64,000 nucleotides of DNA from a bacterium (lineage in GTDB: Bacteria > Acidobacteriota > Blastocatellia > HR10). The translations under genes were made by a program, and so were the position numbers. The stretch spans positions 128,001 to 192,000 of the forward strand of contig JBEPZV010000001.1 of assembly GCA_041640655.1 (NCBI GenBank), written 5' to 3'. The notes under the pieces were generated by a model. That model had not been told where the DNA came from. It did no database searches and saw nothing but the letters and a program-made list of their open reading frames with translations. Shown piece by piece: positions 6,861 to 47,614 of this stretch. How positions within the stretch are numbered: position 1 is the stretch's first letter; every line of letters begins with the position of its first letter.

Positions 6861-8024
6861 ATGTCAGGCAGAACCATCGCCGGACACGAGAACACCGAGC
6901 GGCCACGCATCGAGGTCGGCGCGCCGGGAGGGATCATGCCTCCCTTTGAGAAAGTCGTCCAACAAGCGCAGCGGGCCGAGGCCCAAGGATACGACGCCGT
7001 CTGGTGGCCCTGCCACCTGATGGGATGGCACCCGCAGGCGATCTGGAAGCCGGAGATCACGCCCTTGGCCGCGACCCAGCCGAACGCCGACACGTACTTC
7101 GACCCCGTGGCGACGATCGCCGCCGTGGGCGTGCACACAACGCGCATCCGACTGGGGATCGGCGTCACCGATGTCATTCGCCGCCATCCGGCCATGCTCG
7201 CGCAGGCCGCCCTCACGCTCGATCACATCACGCGCGGACGCATGATCCTCGGCCTCGGTTCGGGCGAGCGGTTGAACATTACCCCCTACGGCCTCGACTT
7301 CGATCAGCCCGTCTCTCGGCTCGAGGAGGGCCTGGTGATCATCCGCCGCTTATGGGAGTCCGGAGGCCGGCCTGTGGAGTTCACGGGGCGCTTCTGGCGG
7401 CTCGAGAGCGCCGTGCTCGGCCTCCCACCATATGAGGGCCGATTCCCGCCCATCTGGATCGCCGCTCACGGACCGCGCATGCTCCGGCTCACCGGACGCT
7501 ACGCCGACGGATGGCTGCCGACGAAGATGACGCCCTCCGAATATCGGGAGAAGCTCGCGCACATCCGCCAAGCTGCCCGCGAGGCCGGACGCGACCCCGA
7601 AGCGATCACCCCGGGCATGCTCGCCTACGTGCTCGTGGACGAAGATCGCGCGGCCGTCTCCCGAATGATGGACGCGATCCTGGTGAGAGCGCTCTGCTTG
7701 CTCCTCCCCGCAGAGGTGTTCACCCGATTCGGATACGACCCCCCGTTCGGCCCGAAGGCGAGCGGCTTTCACGACTACATCCCCGCGCGCTTCGGATACG
7801 AGGACGCCCTGTCGGCGATTCGCAAAGTGCCGCGCGAGATCGTCGCGTACTTCACGCTCCATGGGACGCCGGAGGAGATCGCCGGACAGATCCACGATCT
7901 CGCGGAGGCCGGTCTCCGACATATCGTGCTCTGGAACATCACCCCCTTCGCCGATCCCGCGCGCACGCGCGCCTCATTTCGGGCGTTGGATCGCGTGAGG
8001 GATCTCGTGTCGGGGAGCCCATGA
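6861..8024 (+). CDS. LLM-class oxidoreductase, Rv2951c-like (probably F420-dependent ketoreductase)
   Basis: VTDVIRRHPAMLAQAALTLDHITRGRMILGLGSGERLNITPYG, IWIAAHGPRMLRLTGRYADGW. Confidence 0.8.
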   Translation: MSGRTIAGHENTERPRIEVGAPGGIMPPFEKVVQQAQRAEAQGYDAVWWPCHLMGWHPQAIWKPEITPLAATQPNADTYFDPVATIAAVGVHTTRIRLGIGVTDVIRRHPAMLAQAALTLDHITRGRMILGLGSGERLNITPYGLDFDQPVSRLEEGLVIIRRLWESGGRPVEFTGRFWRLESAVLGLPPYEGRFPPIWIAAHGPRMLRLTGRYADGWLPTKMTPSEYREKLAHIRQAAREAGRDPEAITPGMLAYVLVDEDRAAVSRMMDAILVRALCLLLPAEVFTRFGYDPPFGPKASGFHDYIPARFGYEDALSAIRKVPREIVAYFTLHGTPEEIAGQIHDLAEAGLRHIVLWNITPFADPARTRASFRALDRVRDLVSGSP

Positions 8025-41396: not shown

Positions 41397-42248
41397 ATGC
41401 GTATCGTCGTCTGCCTGACGCAGATTCTCGATCCGGAGATGCCGCCGAGTGAATTTCGACTGGATCCGCAACGAAAGGCGGCCGCCGAGGGGATCGGACA
41501 GCTCGTCGTCAGCATCTTCGATGAGAACGCGCTCGAGGTGGCGCTGCAGGTGCGCGAGCGCATAGCCGAGCGCGAGGGAGCACCCCACGCGATCTCTCGA
41601 TCGCGTGAGGACCCCGGCCCGGTGGAGATCGTCGCGCTCACCGTCGGTCCTCCTTCGGCCGCCGACGTCCTGCGGAAGGCGCTCAGTCTGCGCGCCGATC
41701 GCGCCATTTTGATCTCCAGCGAGGGATGGCCTCCGCTGGAAGGCGCCATCGTCGCCCGCCTTCTGGCCGCCGCCGTGAGACGGCTCCATCCGGTGGACCT
41801 CGTGCTCTGCGGGCGCGAGACGGGAGATTGGCATGGGGGACAGGTCGGCGCCTTCCTGGCCGAAGCGCTCGGATGGGCGAGCGTGAGCTTCGTCTCCCGC
41901 ATCGAGGTGGAGGGGGAGACCTTCCTCATGCGACGCCAATCGGACGAAGGATGGGAGATCGTGCGCGCGAGACGACCCGCCGTGGCGACGATCACCAACG
42001 ATGAGACGAACGTCCCGCGCTTGCCGAAGGTCAGAGATACGATGCTGGCCGCCCGCGCGTCGCTCCCCGTGTGGACGATCCCGGAACTGGTCGAAGATCC
42101 GAGAGAGCTGTGGCAGGCGAATGCCCTGCAGGTGCGCGAGTTGTTCATTCCGAGCAGCTCGAAGGCGTGCGAGGTGATCGAGGGGGAGACGGTTCAGGAG
42201 AAAGCCGTTCGGCTTCTCCAGGCGCTGCGCCGACGACGGATTCTCTGA
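41397..42248 (+). CDS. etfB: Electron transfer flavoprotein beta subunit, with an in-frame palindrome insertion
   Basis: MRIVVCLTQILDP, FDENALEVAL, TVGP, DLVLCG..GQVG, NVPRLP. Confidence 0.92.
   Translation: MRIVVCLTQILDPEMPPSEFRLDPQRKAAAEGIGQLVVSIFDENALEVALQVRERIAEREGAPHAISRSREDPGPVEIVALTVGPPSAADVLRKALSLRADRAILISSEGWPPLEGAIVARLLAAAVRRLHPVDLVLCGRETGDWHGGQVGAFLAEALGWASVSFVSRIEVEGETFLMRRQSDEGWEIVRARRPAVATITNDETNVPRLPKVRDTMLAARASLPVWTIPELVEDPRELWQANALQVRELFIPSSSKACEVIEGETVQEKAVRLLQALRRRRIL
41577..41616 (+). repeat. 40-bp palindromic element inside etfB
   Basis: GGAGCACCCCACGCGATCTCTCGATCGCGTGAGGACCCCG; 35/40 match to consensus; encodes GAPHAISRSREDP. Confidence 0.9.
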
Positions 42249-44100: not shown

Positions 44101-44114
44101 CGCGTCGCCCCGAT

Positions 44115-44159
44115 CCTCCCGGGGTCCCCACGCGATCCGGAGATCGCGTGGGGTGCCCG
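44115..44159 (-). repeat. 40-bp palindromic element plus 5-nt flank, intergenic
   Basis: Reverse complement is identical over 45 nt to 47010-47054. Confidence 0.95.
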
Positions 44160-45136: not shown

Positions 45137-45160
45137 GAGGCGAAGCTCGGAGACGTGGCC

Positions 45161-46372
45161 ATGAAGTCGACCGACCTCACCGGGATCCTCCCGCGATCTC
45201 TCGATCGCGTGGCGTGCCTGAACGCGCTGCTCCATCGGTTCGGGGAGAGCGTCCGTCACTTCTTCCGCGCCGAGCAACGCTCGCACCTGTTCTCCCCCCT
45301 CTTTCATCTCCCCGGGCGATTGATCGCGGGGAGCTATTGCTACTACGAGCACCTGGTGCCCTTGTTGCGACAGGTGGCGCGACAGATGCCGCCGGAAGCC
45401 CTCGCGCATCGGGTGAAGCGACTCGGGGCGCGACCCAACGAGATCAACGCCAATTCTCTGCTGCTCGGGTATCTGAACGGGCGGGAGCAGCGGCGGCTGC
45501 TCGGCCATCGCGTGGCAGATGATCCGGAGGAGATCGCCTTCCTCCTGGACTTCTGGGCGCGCTTCCTCGCCGCCTATCGCGCCGATGGTCGGCTCTTGCC
45601 GGAGGAGAGCGGATTCGTTCTGCCGGTGCTCGAAGCGCGAGCGCTCGAAGTGCTCCTGCCGGAACTCCATCCGGAACCGGAGCACGCACGACGCCAGCGA
45701 GGTCCCCATGTGATCGGGAGATCGCGTGGGGTGCCCGAGCGGATGCGTCGCGCCCTGGCCACGCTCGAGCTCTTCGCCTTCGTCTTCAACGGCGAGGCGC
45801 GCGTCGGCCTCTTTCACCACGGGCCCTATCCCCGACCCGACGGCACGTGCGTGCTCGTCAAGGAGCTGGTGGGGTTGCAGGACGATTTCTATTCCTGGGC
45901 GGAGGAGTCCGTGCGACTCCCCGTGGCCCATGTGGCCTGCCTCTTGCTCGTGAAGGACGTCGAAGTGAGAATCGGTTTATTCGGATCGCTCCGGACGGAG
46001 CCCCGGGAGTACGCTCAGAACGTCGTGGCCTGTGGCCTCTTCACCGCCACGGGGGAAGACGTTCGTCCTCTCACGCTCGAGGAGCTGGAGGAGATCGCCG
46101 CGCACGCGGCTGAGGCGCAGATGCGCCTCTATCGCCACTTCCTCACATGGGATGATCGGCGTCGCATCGCCTATGGAGCGGAGCTCTACGGGAACCTGCT
46201 GCGCGTCTTCGGCGATCAGGCGGGACTCGGGCCGGATTTCCATCGGGAGATCCGAGAGCGCTTCCGGGAGAGCACGGACCGACATCTACAAGCCATACTC
46301 GCTGGCGAGCCTCCGGCCATCCTGCGGCATATCGCGGAGACGGCGGGAGAGATCTACAGCCCCCTCGCATGA
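45161..46372 (+). CDS. Hypothetical protein, paralog A, with an in-frame palindrome insertion
   Basis: Long ORF with typical codon use; aligns with the next ORF (ARPN, DDPE..F.LDFW, YR.DG.LLPE, TLEL, HGPY). Confidence 0.8.
   Translation: MKSTDLTGILPRSLDRVACLNALLHRFGESVRHFFRAEQRSHLFSPLFHLPGRLIAGSYCYYEHLVPLLRQVARQMPPEALAHRVKRLGARPNEINANSLLLGYLNGREQRRLLGHRVADDPEEIAFLLDFWARFLAAYRADGRLLPEESGFVLPVLEARALEVLLPELHPEPEHARRQRGPHVIGRSRGVPERMRRALATLELFAFVFNGEARVGLFHHGPYPRPDGTCVLVKELVGLQDDFYSWAEESVRLPVAHVACLLLVKDVEVRIGLFGSLRTEPREYAQNVVACGLFTATGEDVRPLTLEELEEIAAHAAEAQMRLYRHFLTWDDRRRIAYGAELYGNLLRVFGDQAGLGPDFHREIRERFRESTDRHLQAILAGEPPAILRHIAETAGEIYSPLA
45698..45737 (-). repeat. 40-bp palindromic element inside paralog A
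   Basis: CGAGGTCCCCATGTGATCGGGAGATCGCGTGGGGTGCCCG; 36/40 match to the 44120-44159 copy; encodes RGPHVIGRSRGVP. Confidence 0.9.
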
Positions 46373-46384
46373 AGACCGGGTCGG

Positions 46385-47614
46385 ATGAGGCGCATGACCC
46401 TCGAGGAGATCAATCGCCACATCCGGCTGATCGCGGAACAGCTGAAGGCGTTCATGCGCTCGGAGCAACGCGCGCTCCTGCGATCGGCGCTTTTTGACGT
46501 CCCCCGCCGCTCCTCGCTCGGATGGGAATGCCTCTACCGCACGGCCTATCCGCTGCTGGCGGACCTCACGTCGGTCGTCACGCCTGAGGAGATCGGACGC
46601 CGGATGAAGCGCGTGTGCGCGCGCCCGAATTTCCTCACGCTGAGCATTCTGATCTGCTGCTACCTCGGGGGACGCCAGCAGCGGATCCTCGATCTCGGCG
46701 TGCGACCGGGAGAGCCCTTCCCCGAGGATGATCCCGAGCAGATCGGCTTCGTCCTCGACTTCTGGTGGCGCGTCTGCCGCACCTATCGCGAGGATGGTGC
46801 CCTCTTGCCGGAAGAGCGAGGAGGGACGATGCCGATCCTGCCGGCCGGAACGATCGCTCGACTCCGCGCGCTGCTGGTCGAGACGGATCCGCTCACGGTG
46901 AAACGCCTTCGTCGTCTGGCGGCGACGCTGGAGCTGTACGCGTTCATCCTGCACGGGGAGCAACGCGATGGCCTCTTCGCGCACGGCCCGTACGCGCTGC
47001 AGGAGCGGGCGGGCACCCCACGCGATCTCCGGATCGCGTGGGGACCCCGGGAGGTGCTCGTCATTCGCGAGTTCACCGACCTGCAGAACAGTTATCTCCC
47101 CTGGGCGCAGACGCGCGCGCGGAACCTCTACCCGAATCTGGCGCTCGCGCTCCAGCTTCGGGACGTGACGGCTCAGTTCGATCTCTTCGGAGGGGTGCGA
47201 TTCGATCCCCCGGAATATGCTGATCGCGTTCGCGCCGTCGCGTTGGTGACCGTGGCCGACAATGGGGAGATCCGAGCCGTCCCTTTCGAGGAGATCGAGG
47301 AGATCGAACGCCGCGCGGCCGACGCCCAGATGGAGCTGTATCAACGCGCGCTCTGCTGGTCGCCGCGCTTCAAGATCGAATACGGCCTCTACCTGTTCGC
47401 GAACCACGTGAAGGCGTTCTTCGATCTGGCGGGGGTGGAGGCGGGCGAGCGCATTCGTCGGGCGTTCGAAGAGGCCGCCGCTCCGTTCCTGCAGCGGTTG
47501 CTCGCCGATGCCGAACCACCATTCATCTGGCGGTTCATGGCGACGACAGAAGGCGATTTCTTCTATCCGATCTCCGCGCAGATGCCCGAACGTGAGGGAG
47601 GAGAGGGGCGATGA
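46385..47614 (+). CDS. Hypothetical protein, paralog B, with an in-frame palindrome insertion
   Basis: Aligns end to end with 45161-46372; ATGA overlap with the next gene. Confidence 0.8.
   Translation: MRRMTLEEINRHIRLIAEQLKAFMRSEQRALLRSALFDVPRRSSLGWECLYRTAYPLLADLTSVVTPEEIGRRMKRVCARPNFLTLSILICCYLGGRQQRILDLGVRPGEPFPEDDPEQIGFVLDFWWRVCRTYREDGALLPEERGGTMPILPAGTIARLRALLVETDPLTVKRLRRLAATLELYAFILHGEQRDGLFAHGPYALQERAGTPRDLRIAWGPREVLVIREFTDLQNSYLPWAQTRARNLYPNLALALQLRDVTAQFDLFGGVRFDPPEYADRVRAVALVTVADNGEIRAVPFEEIEEIERRAADAQMELYQRALCWSPRFKIEYGLYLFANHVKAFFDLAGVEAGERIRRAFEEAAAPFLQRLLADAEPPFIWRFMATTEGDFFYPISAQMPEREGGEGR
47010..47049 (+). repeat. 40-bp palindromic element inside paralog B (consensus copy)
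   Basis: CGGGCACCCCACGCGATCTCCGGATCGCGTGGGGACCCCG; encodes GTPRDLRIAWGPR. Confidence 0.95.

What the first reader, a model, noticed from the sequence alone, without database searches (positions are those of the whole stretch)
45640..47070. Reciprocal empty-site evidence: each of two tandem paralogs carries the element where the other lacks it
Seen: paralog A has about 15 extra residues in ELHPEPEHARRQRGPHVIGRSRGVPERMRRALATLEL, where B reads LLVETDPLTVKRLRRLAATLEL. Paralog B has about 14 extra residues in HGPYALQERAGTPRDLRIAWGPREVLVIRE, where A reads HGPYPRPDGTCVLVKE. Both extra segments coincide with the palindrome. Inference: two independent frame-preserving insertions, the A copy (4 mismatches) older than the B copy (none).
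Basis: seen in the sequence. Interest (0 to 1): 0.75.

Follow-up and report, generated by a model that had tools for sequence, protein, structure and literature searches.

The report
Palindromic mobile repeat inside two paralogs
A 40-base hairpin-forming selfish repeat has landed in frame at different places in two neighbouring sister genes, adding a 14-residue surface loop to each; this behaviour is known from Rickettsia, but here it is caught in the act in hot-spring Acidobacteria.

Summary
Paralogs A (45155-46372) and B (46385-47614) each carry exactly 14 extra codons (42 nt). Those codons are a copy of a 40-nt imperfect palindrome, consensus CGGGCA-CCCCACGCGATC-nnnn-GATCGCGTGGGG-ACCCCG. 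A covariance model finds it at 26 sites in this genome. It is common only in part of one genus.

Orthologs give clean empty sites. The A insert is missing from four sister genomes and from a contig about 97% identical, which skips exactly 45696-45737. Loop lengths at both sites are otherwise near constant: 68 of 71 and 65 of 71 homologs.

Both inserts fall in low-confidence loops of otherwise confident structure models. A third, degenerate copy lies at the N-terminus of A.

The imperfect A copy is the younger one, found only in this lineage. The perfect B copy is shared with a sister genome, where it has lost 15 nt.

Between two genomes about 94% identical, 7 of 8 gains are +42 nt. Old copies decay by internal deletions, in frame when coding.

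No transposase was identified, and no Y1/RAYT gene was found in 7 genomes. The element works like Rickettsia RPEs and intragenic REPs but belongs to neither. This scan had already noted the family on overlapping DNA.

The parts
45155..46372 (+). Paralog A, 405 aa, no Pfam family. It hosts two element copies.
   Evidence: ORF; Pfam scan; 101 homologs; model pLDDT 90.7.
46385..47614 (+). Paralog B, 409 aa, no Pfam family above cut-off. It hosts one element copy.
   Evidence: ORF; Pfam scan; 210 homologs; model pLDDT 93.7.
45696..45737 (-). 42-nt insertion in A. It is the 40-mer at 45698-45737 (forward orientation on the minus strand) plus a 2-nt AG repeat. It encodes RGPHVIGRSRGVPE, aa 182-195.
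   Evidence: Empty in G001-G004 and in P0121. A contig of run X5 joins 45695 to 45738. The site is a coil between H176-181 and H193-211 with pLDDT about 55.
47010..47049 (+). 40-nt element in B, identical to the consensus. Net insert is 42 nt, encoding AGTPRDLRIAWGPR, aa 209-222.
   Evidence: DNA hairpin energy is -20.3 kcal/mol, z -6.95. It forms the loop between strands E197-204 and E223-230, with block pLDDT 80 and 56. G002 and the X5 contig carry the same copy minus 15 nt.
45181..45220 (-). Degenerate third copy in codons 9-22 of A (TGILPRSLDRVACL).
   Evidence: G002 has the same copy with 24 nt deleted. In G001, G003 and G004 the gene starts at this point without the element.
44120..44159 (-). 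Intergenic copy between the enoyl-CoA hydratase gene and the DUF7064/7065 gene. It was inserted next to an older collapsed remnant at 44108-44118.
   Evidence: The +42 nt is present in G000 only. G002 keeps only a 24-nt collapsed copy at this place.
41577..41616 (+). In-frame copy in the electron-transfer flavoprotein (ETF-domain) gene 41397..42248.

Best explanation
Both extra loops are separate insertions of one small, non-autonomous, hairpin-forming mobile repeat. It is a 40-nt imperfect palindrome with 18-nt arms, a conserved 2-nt internal mismatch that gives it an orientation, and a 4-nt loop.

The usual net gain is 42 nt. That is a multiple of three, so the reading frame is kept. Consensus copies have no stop codon in any of the six frames. 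Every reading gives a hydrophilic peptide bounded by Gly or Pro. So hits in permissive surface loops survive selection.

The family is active in a sub-clade of one hot-spring Acidobacteria genus. Copies are gained between genomes about 94% identical. They then decay by internal deletions that collapse the hairpin, in multiples of three when the copy is coding.

Shown here: repeat family, empty sites, insert length, loop location and decay. Inferred: that the element moves as a single-stranded hairpin, handled in trans by an enzyme not yet identified, and that it tends to land in or beside hairpin-prone DNA, including older copies.
For: Repeat family:
- The core has 18 sites in the genome against 0 for the reversed control.
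- The covariance model finds 26 distinct sites.

Empty sites:
- The A insert is absent in 4 of 4 sister genomes compared.
- It is absent in 35 of 35 A-type homologs aligned.
- It is absent in a contig of run X5 that skips exactly 42 nt.

Loop lengths:
- At the A site, 68 of 71 sequences have 23 residues; A has 38.
- At the B site, 65 of 71 have 11 residues; B has 25.

G000 against G002, collinear at 92-95% identity:
- 8 filled/empty pairs were found.
- 7 of them are +42 nt and 1 is +44 nt, the latter intergenic.

Decay in G002:
- Coding copies lost 15, 24 and 30 nt, so 3 of 3 are in frame.
- An intergenic copy lost 16 nt.

Coding use:
- 15 of 26 sites lie in called ORFs.
- 11 of those are backed by Pfam or homologs.
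- All 3 phases and both orientations are used.
- Consensus copies have 0 of 6 frames with a stop.

Structure:
- Both inserts are low-pLDDT coil in models with mean pLDDT 93.7 and 90.7.

Hairpin:
- Energy is -20.3 kcal/mol, z about -7.
- 9 cells changed on both sides, against a shuffle mean of 3.3; 0 of 500 shuffles reached the observed value.
Against: - No mobilising enzyme was found. PF01797 (Y1/RAYT) is over the cut-off in 0 of 7 genus genomes. The IS630-type DDE, DDE_Tnp_1 and TnpB scans show no pattern that tracks the element.
- Only 3 of 8 filled/empty pairs show a 2-nt direct repeat around the 40-mer, and no target motif emerged.
- The hairpin-target idea is weak. Mean stem is 4.1 against 3.2 (P 0.024), and the energy test gives P 0.14 with n = 8.
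- Copy number is low, at 26.
- In G005 the B site holds 42 nt of unrelated, unique sequence, which I cannot derive from the element.
- All genomes are draft assemblies, 73-98% complete.
Confidence: 0.85

Rival explanations
1. The hairpin is a selected cis-acting signal, such as an mRNA stabiliser or attenuator or a protein-binding site. It would have been recruited into this operon, with coding copies kept for that role and not as selfish insertions.
For: Arm changes are compensated more often than in shuffles. The internal mismatch and orientation are conserved. Five copies lie within 5.5 kb of one gene cluster, against 0.47 expected at the contig's own density (P about 1e-4).
Against: Copies are gained and lost between genomes about 94% identical, and they collapse freely. 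They sit in unrelated genes in all phases and both orientations. No Rfam family matched. Sister genomes run the same operon without them. Compensated arms are equally expected if the hairpin is needed for mobility.
Confidence: 0.1
2. The loops are ancestral protein features that were lost in the other paralog and in most orthologs. On this reading the DNA palindrome is incidental.
For: Only the bare fact of reciprocal length differences.
Against: The same 40-mer is found at 26 unrelated sites, 11 of them intergenic. A lineage about 97% identical lacks exactly the 42 nt. Loop length is constant in 65-68 of 71 homologs.
Confidence: 0.02
3. Copies spread by recombination or gene conversion between pre-existing short palindromes, not by an element-specific enzyme.
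For: The A target lies in the loop of a 9-bp inverted repeat. Microhomologies of 2 to 6 nt occur at several junctions. New copies abut or nest in old ones.
Against: There is no extended homology between the flanks of different copies. The gain is a constant 42 nt in 7 of 8 pairs.
Confidence: 0.1

Closest known systems
Rickettsia palindromic elements (RPE; Ogata et al. 2000). Seen as passages of the reviews PMC10969869 and PMC3733652; the primary paper was not read.
   Same: A palindromic selfish repeat inserted in frame into unrelated, still functional genes. Inserts are compatible with the protein fold.
   Different: RPEs are about 100-150 bp and are described from Rickettsia. Each family encodes a conserved peptide. 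This element is 40 nt, occurs in Acidobacteria, is read in all three phases and both orientations, and has an unrelated sequence.
REP elements, including intragenic REPs (Di Nocera et al. 2013, PMC3733652; abstract and passages read).
   Same: A 20-40 bp imperfect palindrome in a dispersed family. Some REPs are found inside genes, and they often occur in pairs or clusters.
   Different: There is no GTAG or CGTC tag at either end. No RAYT/Y1 gene is over the cut-off in 7 genomes. 15 of 26 copies lie in called ORFs, whereas REPs are mostly extragenic. Copy number is low.
Bacterial MITEs such as the Correia element (review PMC10969869; passages read).
   Same: Non-autonomous, with two inverted arms, presence/absence variation between close genomes, and the ability to fuse in frame with host ORFs.
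   Different: At 40 nt it is below the 70-300 bp range given in PMC3733652. The target duplication is inconsistent (3 of 8 pairs). No parent insertion sequence with these arms was found.

Membership tests
REP (GTAG/CGTC-tagged palindromic repeats) | 20-40 bp imperfect palindrome repeated in the genome | tested here: met
   40-nt consensus with 18-nt arms and a 2-nt internal mismatch; 26 sites.
REP (GTAG/CGTC-tagged palindromic repeats) | GTAG or CGTC tetranucleotide at one end (PMC3733652) | tested here: not met
   The 44-column consensus nnCGGGCACCCC...GGGGACCCCGnG has neither tag at its ends.
REP (GTAG/CGTC-tagged palindromic repeats) | Associated RAYT (Y1 tyrosine transposase, PF01797) in the genome | tested here: not met
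   0 of 7 genus genomes have a match over the cut-off; the control rang in 6 of 14 reference genomes. Caveat: these are drafts, 73-98% complete.
REP (GTAG/CGTC-tagged palindromic repeats) | Predominantly extragenic | tested here: not met
   15 of 26 sites lie inside called ORFs, and 11 of those are backed by Pfam or homologs.
Rickettsia palindromic elements (RPE) | In-frame insertion into functional ORFs at structurally tolerated places | tested here: met
Rickettsia palindromic elements (RPE) | About 100-150 bp unit that encodes a conserved family peptide | tested here: not met
   The unit is 40 nt, and three phases and both orientations give different peptides.
MITE | Terminal inverted repeats of 15-30 bp | tested here: met
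   The two 18-nt arms make up nearly the whole element.
MITE | Length 70-300 bp and a fixed-length target duplication | tested here: not met
   Length is 40 nt. A 2-nt direct repeat occurs in 3 of 8 filled/empty pairs only.
MITE | Parent insertion sequence with the same ends | tested here: inconclusive
   The 22 lone-arm matches in G000 showed no partner arm in the 30 nt printed beside them, and pairs further apart around a gene were not examined. DDE and TnpB scans gave no linked gene. The assemblies are incomplete.
IS200/IS605-derived hairpin elements | Y1 HUH transposase, with insertion 3' of a fixed short target and no duplication | tested here: inconclusive
   No Y1 gene was found and no common flank motif. 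An imperfect hairpin with a mostly duplication-free gain is compatible with this family.

The most novel reading that the evidence does not exclude
The hairpin may be a structure-directed mobile module that needs no RAYT. It would home to hairpin loops and to its own older copies, which would explain doublets, nested copies and local clusters. It may also be exchanged between phyla in hot habitats. The same 36-40 nt core with the same asymmetric flanks occurs in Thermoflexus-titled MAG records, in a 70-73% GC record titled Pseudomonadota (inside a repeat of about 110-190 nt) and in a record titled Bacillota. That would point to an unidentified, horizontally shared enzyme that recognises it.
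Probability: 0.2. Interest if true: 0.7.

Novelty: new variant of a known kind. Interest (0 to 1): 0.45.

Why it matters
This is a clean natural experiment. Two paralogs and their orthologs record at least seven separate hits by a 14-codon cassette, with exact empty sites and a visible decay series. It shows which loops of an uncharacterised, confidently folded protein family tolerate insertions.

It extends RPE-like 'selfish DNA in coding genes' to thermophilic Acidobacteria and to REP-sized elements. It also warns that similarity to the consensus does not date such copies.

In practice these repeats break assemblies at that point and inflate apparent loop diversity in protein families.

Tried and rejected
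- Rfam: no match for the hairpins or for the 41-48 kb stretch.
- CRISPR link: the two array repeats found by a crude script look unrelated to the element, on my reading.
- Viral carriers: 0 exact core matches in viral contigs.
- TnpB link: a TnpB-like ORF at C1:28684-29967 lies between two copies, but they are 0.6-0.8 kb from it, and the other TnpB loci have no copy on their contigs. Dropped.
- Mis-binning as the cause of the cross-phylum hits: rejected, since those contigs have 70-73% GC and share only 39-60 nt with G000.
- Defluviicoccus copies: they lie in a 4.1-kb duplicated block that begins in the rRNA operon, not in an insertion sequence.
- Replication origin as the cause of the C1 cluster: dnaA is on C3. 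Not pursued further.
- Fold of A/B: Foldseek on PDB gave nothing at E <= 0.001. VIA wide gave a best Z of 2.7.
- Population variation of the A insert in runs X1, X3 and X4: only contigs were available. They carry the insert and break at the B copy, and contigs cannot show rare alleles.
- Literature: three full-text searches found no description of this family. One preprint hit was irrelevant.
Full report
**Observation.**
ORFs 45155..46372 (A, 405 aa) and 46385..47614 (B, 409 aa) are tandem paralogs on the + strand. They are 38% identical (E 7e-71). The alignment opens one gap in B opposite A's ...RRQRGPHVIGRSRGVPERM... and one gap in A opposite B's ...ERAGTPRDLRIAWGPRE.... Both extra segments are copies of one palindrome. 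Its 28-nt core occurs 5 times in the window at up to 3 mismatches, at 41583, 44126, 45187, 45704 and 47016. None is expected by chance, and 0 of 100 shuffles reached 5. The arms extend to 18 nt at 89% complementarity.

**The element.**
Twenty-two oriented copies from this genome align without gaps. The consensus is CGGGCA CCCCACGCGATC nnnn GATCGCGTGGGG ACCCCG.
- A conserved 2-nt internal mismatch (CA opposite AC; GT/TG in the other orientation) gives the palindrome an orientation. The covariance model scores the right strand about 30 bits higher.
- As single-stranded DNA, perfect copies fold at -20.3 kcal/mol (z about -7). The A copy folds at -10.6 kcal/mol and the N-terminal copy at -8.7 kcal/mol.
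- In the arms, 89% of cells pair. Nine cells carry changes on both sides against 3.3 in shuffles (0 of 500 as high), mostly CG to UA or GC at one pair. The copies are related, so this shows only that the hairpin tends to be kept.
- No Rfam family matches.

**Distribution.**
The core has 18 sites in the 3.13-Mb, 128-contig assembly, against 0 for the reversed control. The covariance model lists 26 distinct sites.
- Nineteen of the 26 lie on contig C1, which is 7.2% of the bases (binomial P about 7e-17). Five lie within 5.5 kb around A and B, against 0.47 expected even at C1's density.
- C1 is also the compositional outlier among the 17 contigs over 50 kb. Its GC is 61.0% against 62.6-64.7%, and its tetranucleotide correlation is 0.970 against 0.99 or more.
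- Among 41 genomes sampled from the class, the core occurs in only 4, all in the window's genus: G000 18, G002 14, G005 27 and G006 6 sites.
- With the model, my counts of distinct listed sites are about 26, 21, 34, 11, 2, 1 and 0 for G000, G002, G005, G006, G001, G003 and G004.

**Empty sites for the two paralogs.**
The A-B pair is tandem in G001-G004. G005 holds B at a contig start.
- *A site.* G000 reads ...CGCCAG|CGAGGTCCCC...GGGGTGCCCGAG|CGGATG.... G002 reads ...CGCCAG|CGGATG..., and G001, G003 and G004 are likewise uninterrupted. The gain is 42 nt. It can be read as the 40-mer plus a 2-nt AG repeat, or equivalently as 4 nt of junction ambiguity.
- None of 35 A-type homologs has the segment. 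One of them, P0121, is 96% identical in the alignment (93% by BLASTP).
- A 3828-nt contig of run X5, from another study, has 85 differences in 2559 aligned bases. It joins 45695 to 45738, skipping 42 nt with 4 ambiguous bases. It also lacks 15 nt at 47026.
- *B site.* G000 carries the perfect 40-mer. G002 has the same junctions and orientation with 15 internal nt deleted. G005 has 42 nt of unrelated sequence that is unique in its genome. G001, G003 and G004 are empty.
- *Loop lengths.* Between the conserved anchors, the length is 23 residues in 68 of 71 sequences at the A site (A has 38). It is 11 residues in 65 of 71 at the B site (B has 25). In the A-type alignment, 35 of 37 sequences have 11 at the B site.

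**Age.**
The A insertion is private to the G000 lineage. The B insertion predates the split from G002 and the X5-type lineage. The order proposed from mismatch counts is reversed. The N-terminal copy is older still:
- It is full length in G000 and in P0121.
- It is collapsed by 24 nt in G002.
- In G001, G003 and G004 the gene starts (MERA...) exactly there without it.

**Turnover between two close genomes.**
G002 contigs C10 and C7 are collinear with G000 C1 at 92-95% identity. Eight filled/empty pairs were found.
- Six are G000-only: A, the intergenic 44120 copy, and C1:37860, 49357, 57595 and 61547.
- Two are G002-only, opposite window positions about 6898 and about 53436.
- Seven pairs are +42 nt and one, intergenic, is +44 nt.
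- A 2-nt direct repeat flanks the 40-mer in 3 of 8 pairs (AG, CA, CA). The others show none, and no common target motif is visible.
- Copies shared by both genomes also exist (C1:28067, 57844, 58520 and 80633).
- Decay is by internal deletion. G002 lost 15 nt (B), 24 nt (A N-terminus) and 30 nt (OpcA gene), all in frame. An intergenic copy lost 16 nt. That pattern argues the host genes stay under selection.

**Coding use.**
A crude codon-score gene call puts 15 of 26 sites inside ORFs. Pfam or homologs support 11 of these:
- an ECF sigma factor
- OpcA
- a pyridine-nucleotide disulphide oxidoreductase
- DUF3179
- a Crp-type regulator
- the ETF gene
- DUF4175
- DUF1015
- A (two copies) and B

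In the 13 of these 15 tabulated (the two weakly scored ORFs at C1:37860 and 58520, without Pfam support, were left out), the copies use all three phases (5, 6 and 2 copies) and both orientations (8 the same as the gene, 5 opposite). This gives different peptides such as AGTPRDLRIAWGPR, RGPHVIGRSRGVPE and GAPHAISRSREDPG. Consensus copies have a stop in 0 of 6 frames. Variants with a TATA loop have stops in 2 frames. Overall 22 of 156 frames contain a stop. This rules out a selected peptide motif and fits a frame-neutral cassette.

**Structure.**
- The B model has mean pLDDT 93.7 and pTM 0.92. The insert (aa 209-222) lies between strands E197-204 and E223-230. Block pLDDT there falls to 80 and 56.
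- The A model has mean pLDDT 90.7. Its insert (aa 182-195) is coil between a short helix 176-181 and helix 193-211. Block pLDDT is 55, and residues 188-190 are under 50. In B the equivalent helix (169-189) is continuous, so the insert splits off the helix's first turns.
- Neither protein has a Pfam family.
- The B model has no match in solved structures: Foldseek gave none at E <= 0.001, and VIA wide gave a best Z of 2.7.

**More hits in the same gene pair elsewhere.**
- In the metagenome locus L092, the A-type gene holds an inverted doublet of two copies (84 nt, 28 aa).
- The L092 B-type gene keeps a half element directly after ...YAL. It lies 9 nt from G000's site and is in the opposite orientation by its flank.
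- In L090 the B-type gene holds a nested copy (75 nt) at a third site, and the A-type gene holds a copy in the loop homologous to B's.
- G002's B gene also has a lone 18-nt arm at a further site, a net gain of 15 nt.
- On a protein tree, the L090/L092 clade groups with the empty G001/G003/G004 clade with support 89/91.

Together with the opposite orientation, this means the B hairpin loop was hit at least twice independently. Survival only in permissive loops is the simplest reason for such recurrence.

**Mechanism.**
- No Y1/RAYT gene is over the cut-off in 7 of 7 genus genomes.
- An IS630-type DDE occurs only in element-poor G001.
- DDE_Tnp_1 and TnpB do not track the element.
- The lone arms show no partner arm in the 30 nt printed beside them.
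- The A target is the loop of a 9-bp inverted repeat, GCGCGACGC[cag^cggat]GCGTCGCGC. The 44120 copy landed in the loop of a 5-bp repeat, beside an older remnant. Over 8 empty sites the mean spanning stem is 4.1 against 3.2 at random (P 0.024), while the folding-energy test gives P 0.14.

I therefore commit, as inference only, to movement as a hairpin handled in trans, with a bias towards hairpin-prone DNA.

**Beyond the genus.**
An exact-core scan of one genome per species gave 41 loci. Going by the record titles the tool printed, 26 come from other lineages.
- Seven of these carry the same asymmetric flanks: three Thermoflexus-titled loci, three from one record titled Pseudomonadota, and one titled Bacillota.
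- The Pseudomonadota copies sit in a repeat of about 110-190 nt.
- These contigs have 70-73% GC and share only 39-60 nt with G000, so they are not mis-binned.
- Each of those genomes has 1-4 sites.
- Several Alphaproteobacteria-titled records hold a 26-27-nt variant with other flanks.
- No viral contig has the core.

**Comparison and novelty.**
In-frame palindromic repeats are known from Rickettsia RPEs, and intragenic REPs are known too. I read passages of PMC10969869 and the abstract and passages of PMC3733652. This element works like them, but it fails REP's tag, RAYT and extragenic criteria, and it fails RPE's size and peptide criteria. Three full-text searches found no description of this family. 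Earlier notes of this scan had already flagged the family and the ETF-gene copy on overlapping DNA.

Noticed in passing
window 45181-45220: Third, degenerate element copy in codons 9-22 of A. Its right arm contains an in-frame GTG at the position where G001, G003 and G004 have the start codon, so the true start of A, and a hairpin over it, are open questions.
   Followed up: partly
window 44108-44159: A new full copy sits directly beside an older collapsed remnant. G002 keeps only a 24-nt collapsed copy there. Doublets and nested copies recur in L090, L092 and G005 contigs C76 and C124.
   Followed up: partly
window about 6898 and about 53436: These sites are empty here but filled in G002. One gain is +42 nt in codon 13 of ORF 6861..8024. 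The other is +44 nt and, going by the gene bounds in earlier notes of this scan, intergenic.
   Followed up: yes
G000 contig C1 (the window is C1:128001-192000): 19 of 26 copies lie on this 224-kb contig. It is also the compositional outlier (GC 61.0%, tetranucleotide correlation 0.970) and shows a cumulative GC-skew minimum near 140 kb. dnaA is on C3.
   Followed up: partly
L065, L073, L074, L070, L072, L079, L044: The same core with the same asymmetric flanks occurs in MAG records titled Thermoflexus, Pseudomonadota and Bacillota. In the Pseudomonadota record it is the centre of a repeat of about 110-190 nt.
   Followed up: partly
L005:229-270 (G005 B site): Exactly 42 nt of unrelated sequence, unique in that genome, occupy the place of the element. 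The origin is unexplained.
   Followed up: partly
window 45155-47614: The A/B protein family has no Pfam family and no match to solved structures, despite models with pLDDT 91-94. The pair is conserved in tandem across the genus and is widespread in metagenomes.
   Followed up: partly
L029:8684-9967 (G000 C1:28684-29967) and L085:2577-2636: A TnpB-like ORF sits downstream of opcA, next to a 157-aa ORF that I read, untested, as the C-terminal part of a 6-phosphogluconolactonase. A 60-nt stretch inside it is 91.7% identical to a Thermoflexus-titled contig.
   Followed up: no
window 47004-47060: Contigs of runs X1, X3 and X4 end or branch at the B copy, with loose ends that lead into the flanks of other copies. 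The repeat breaks short-read assemblies.
   Followed up: no
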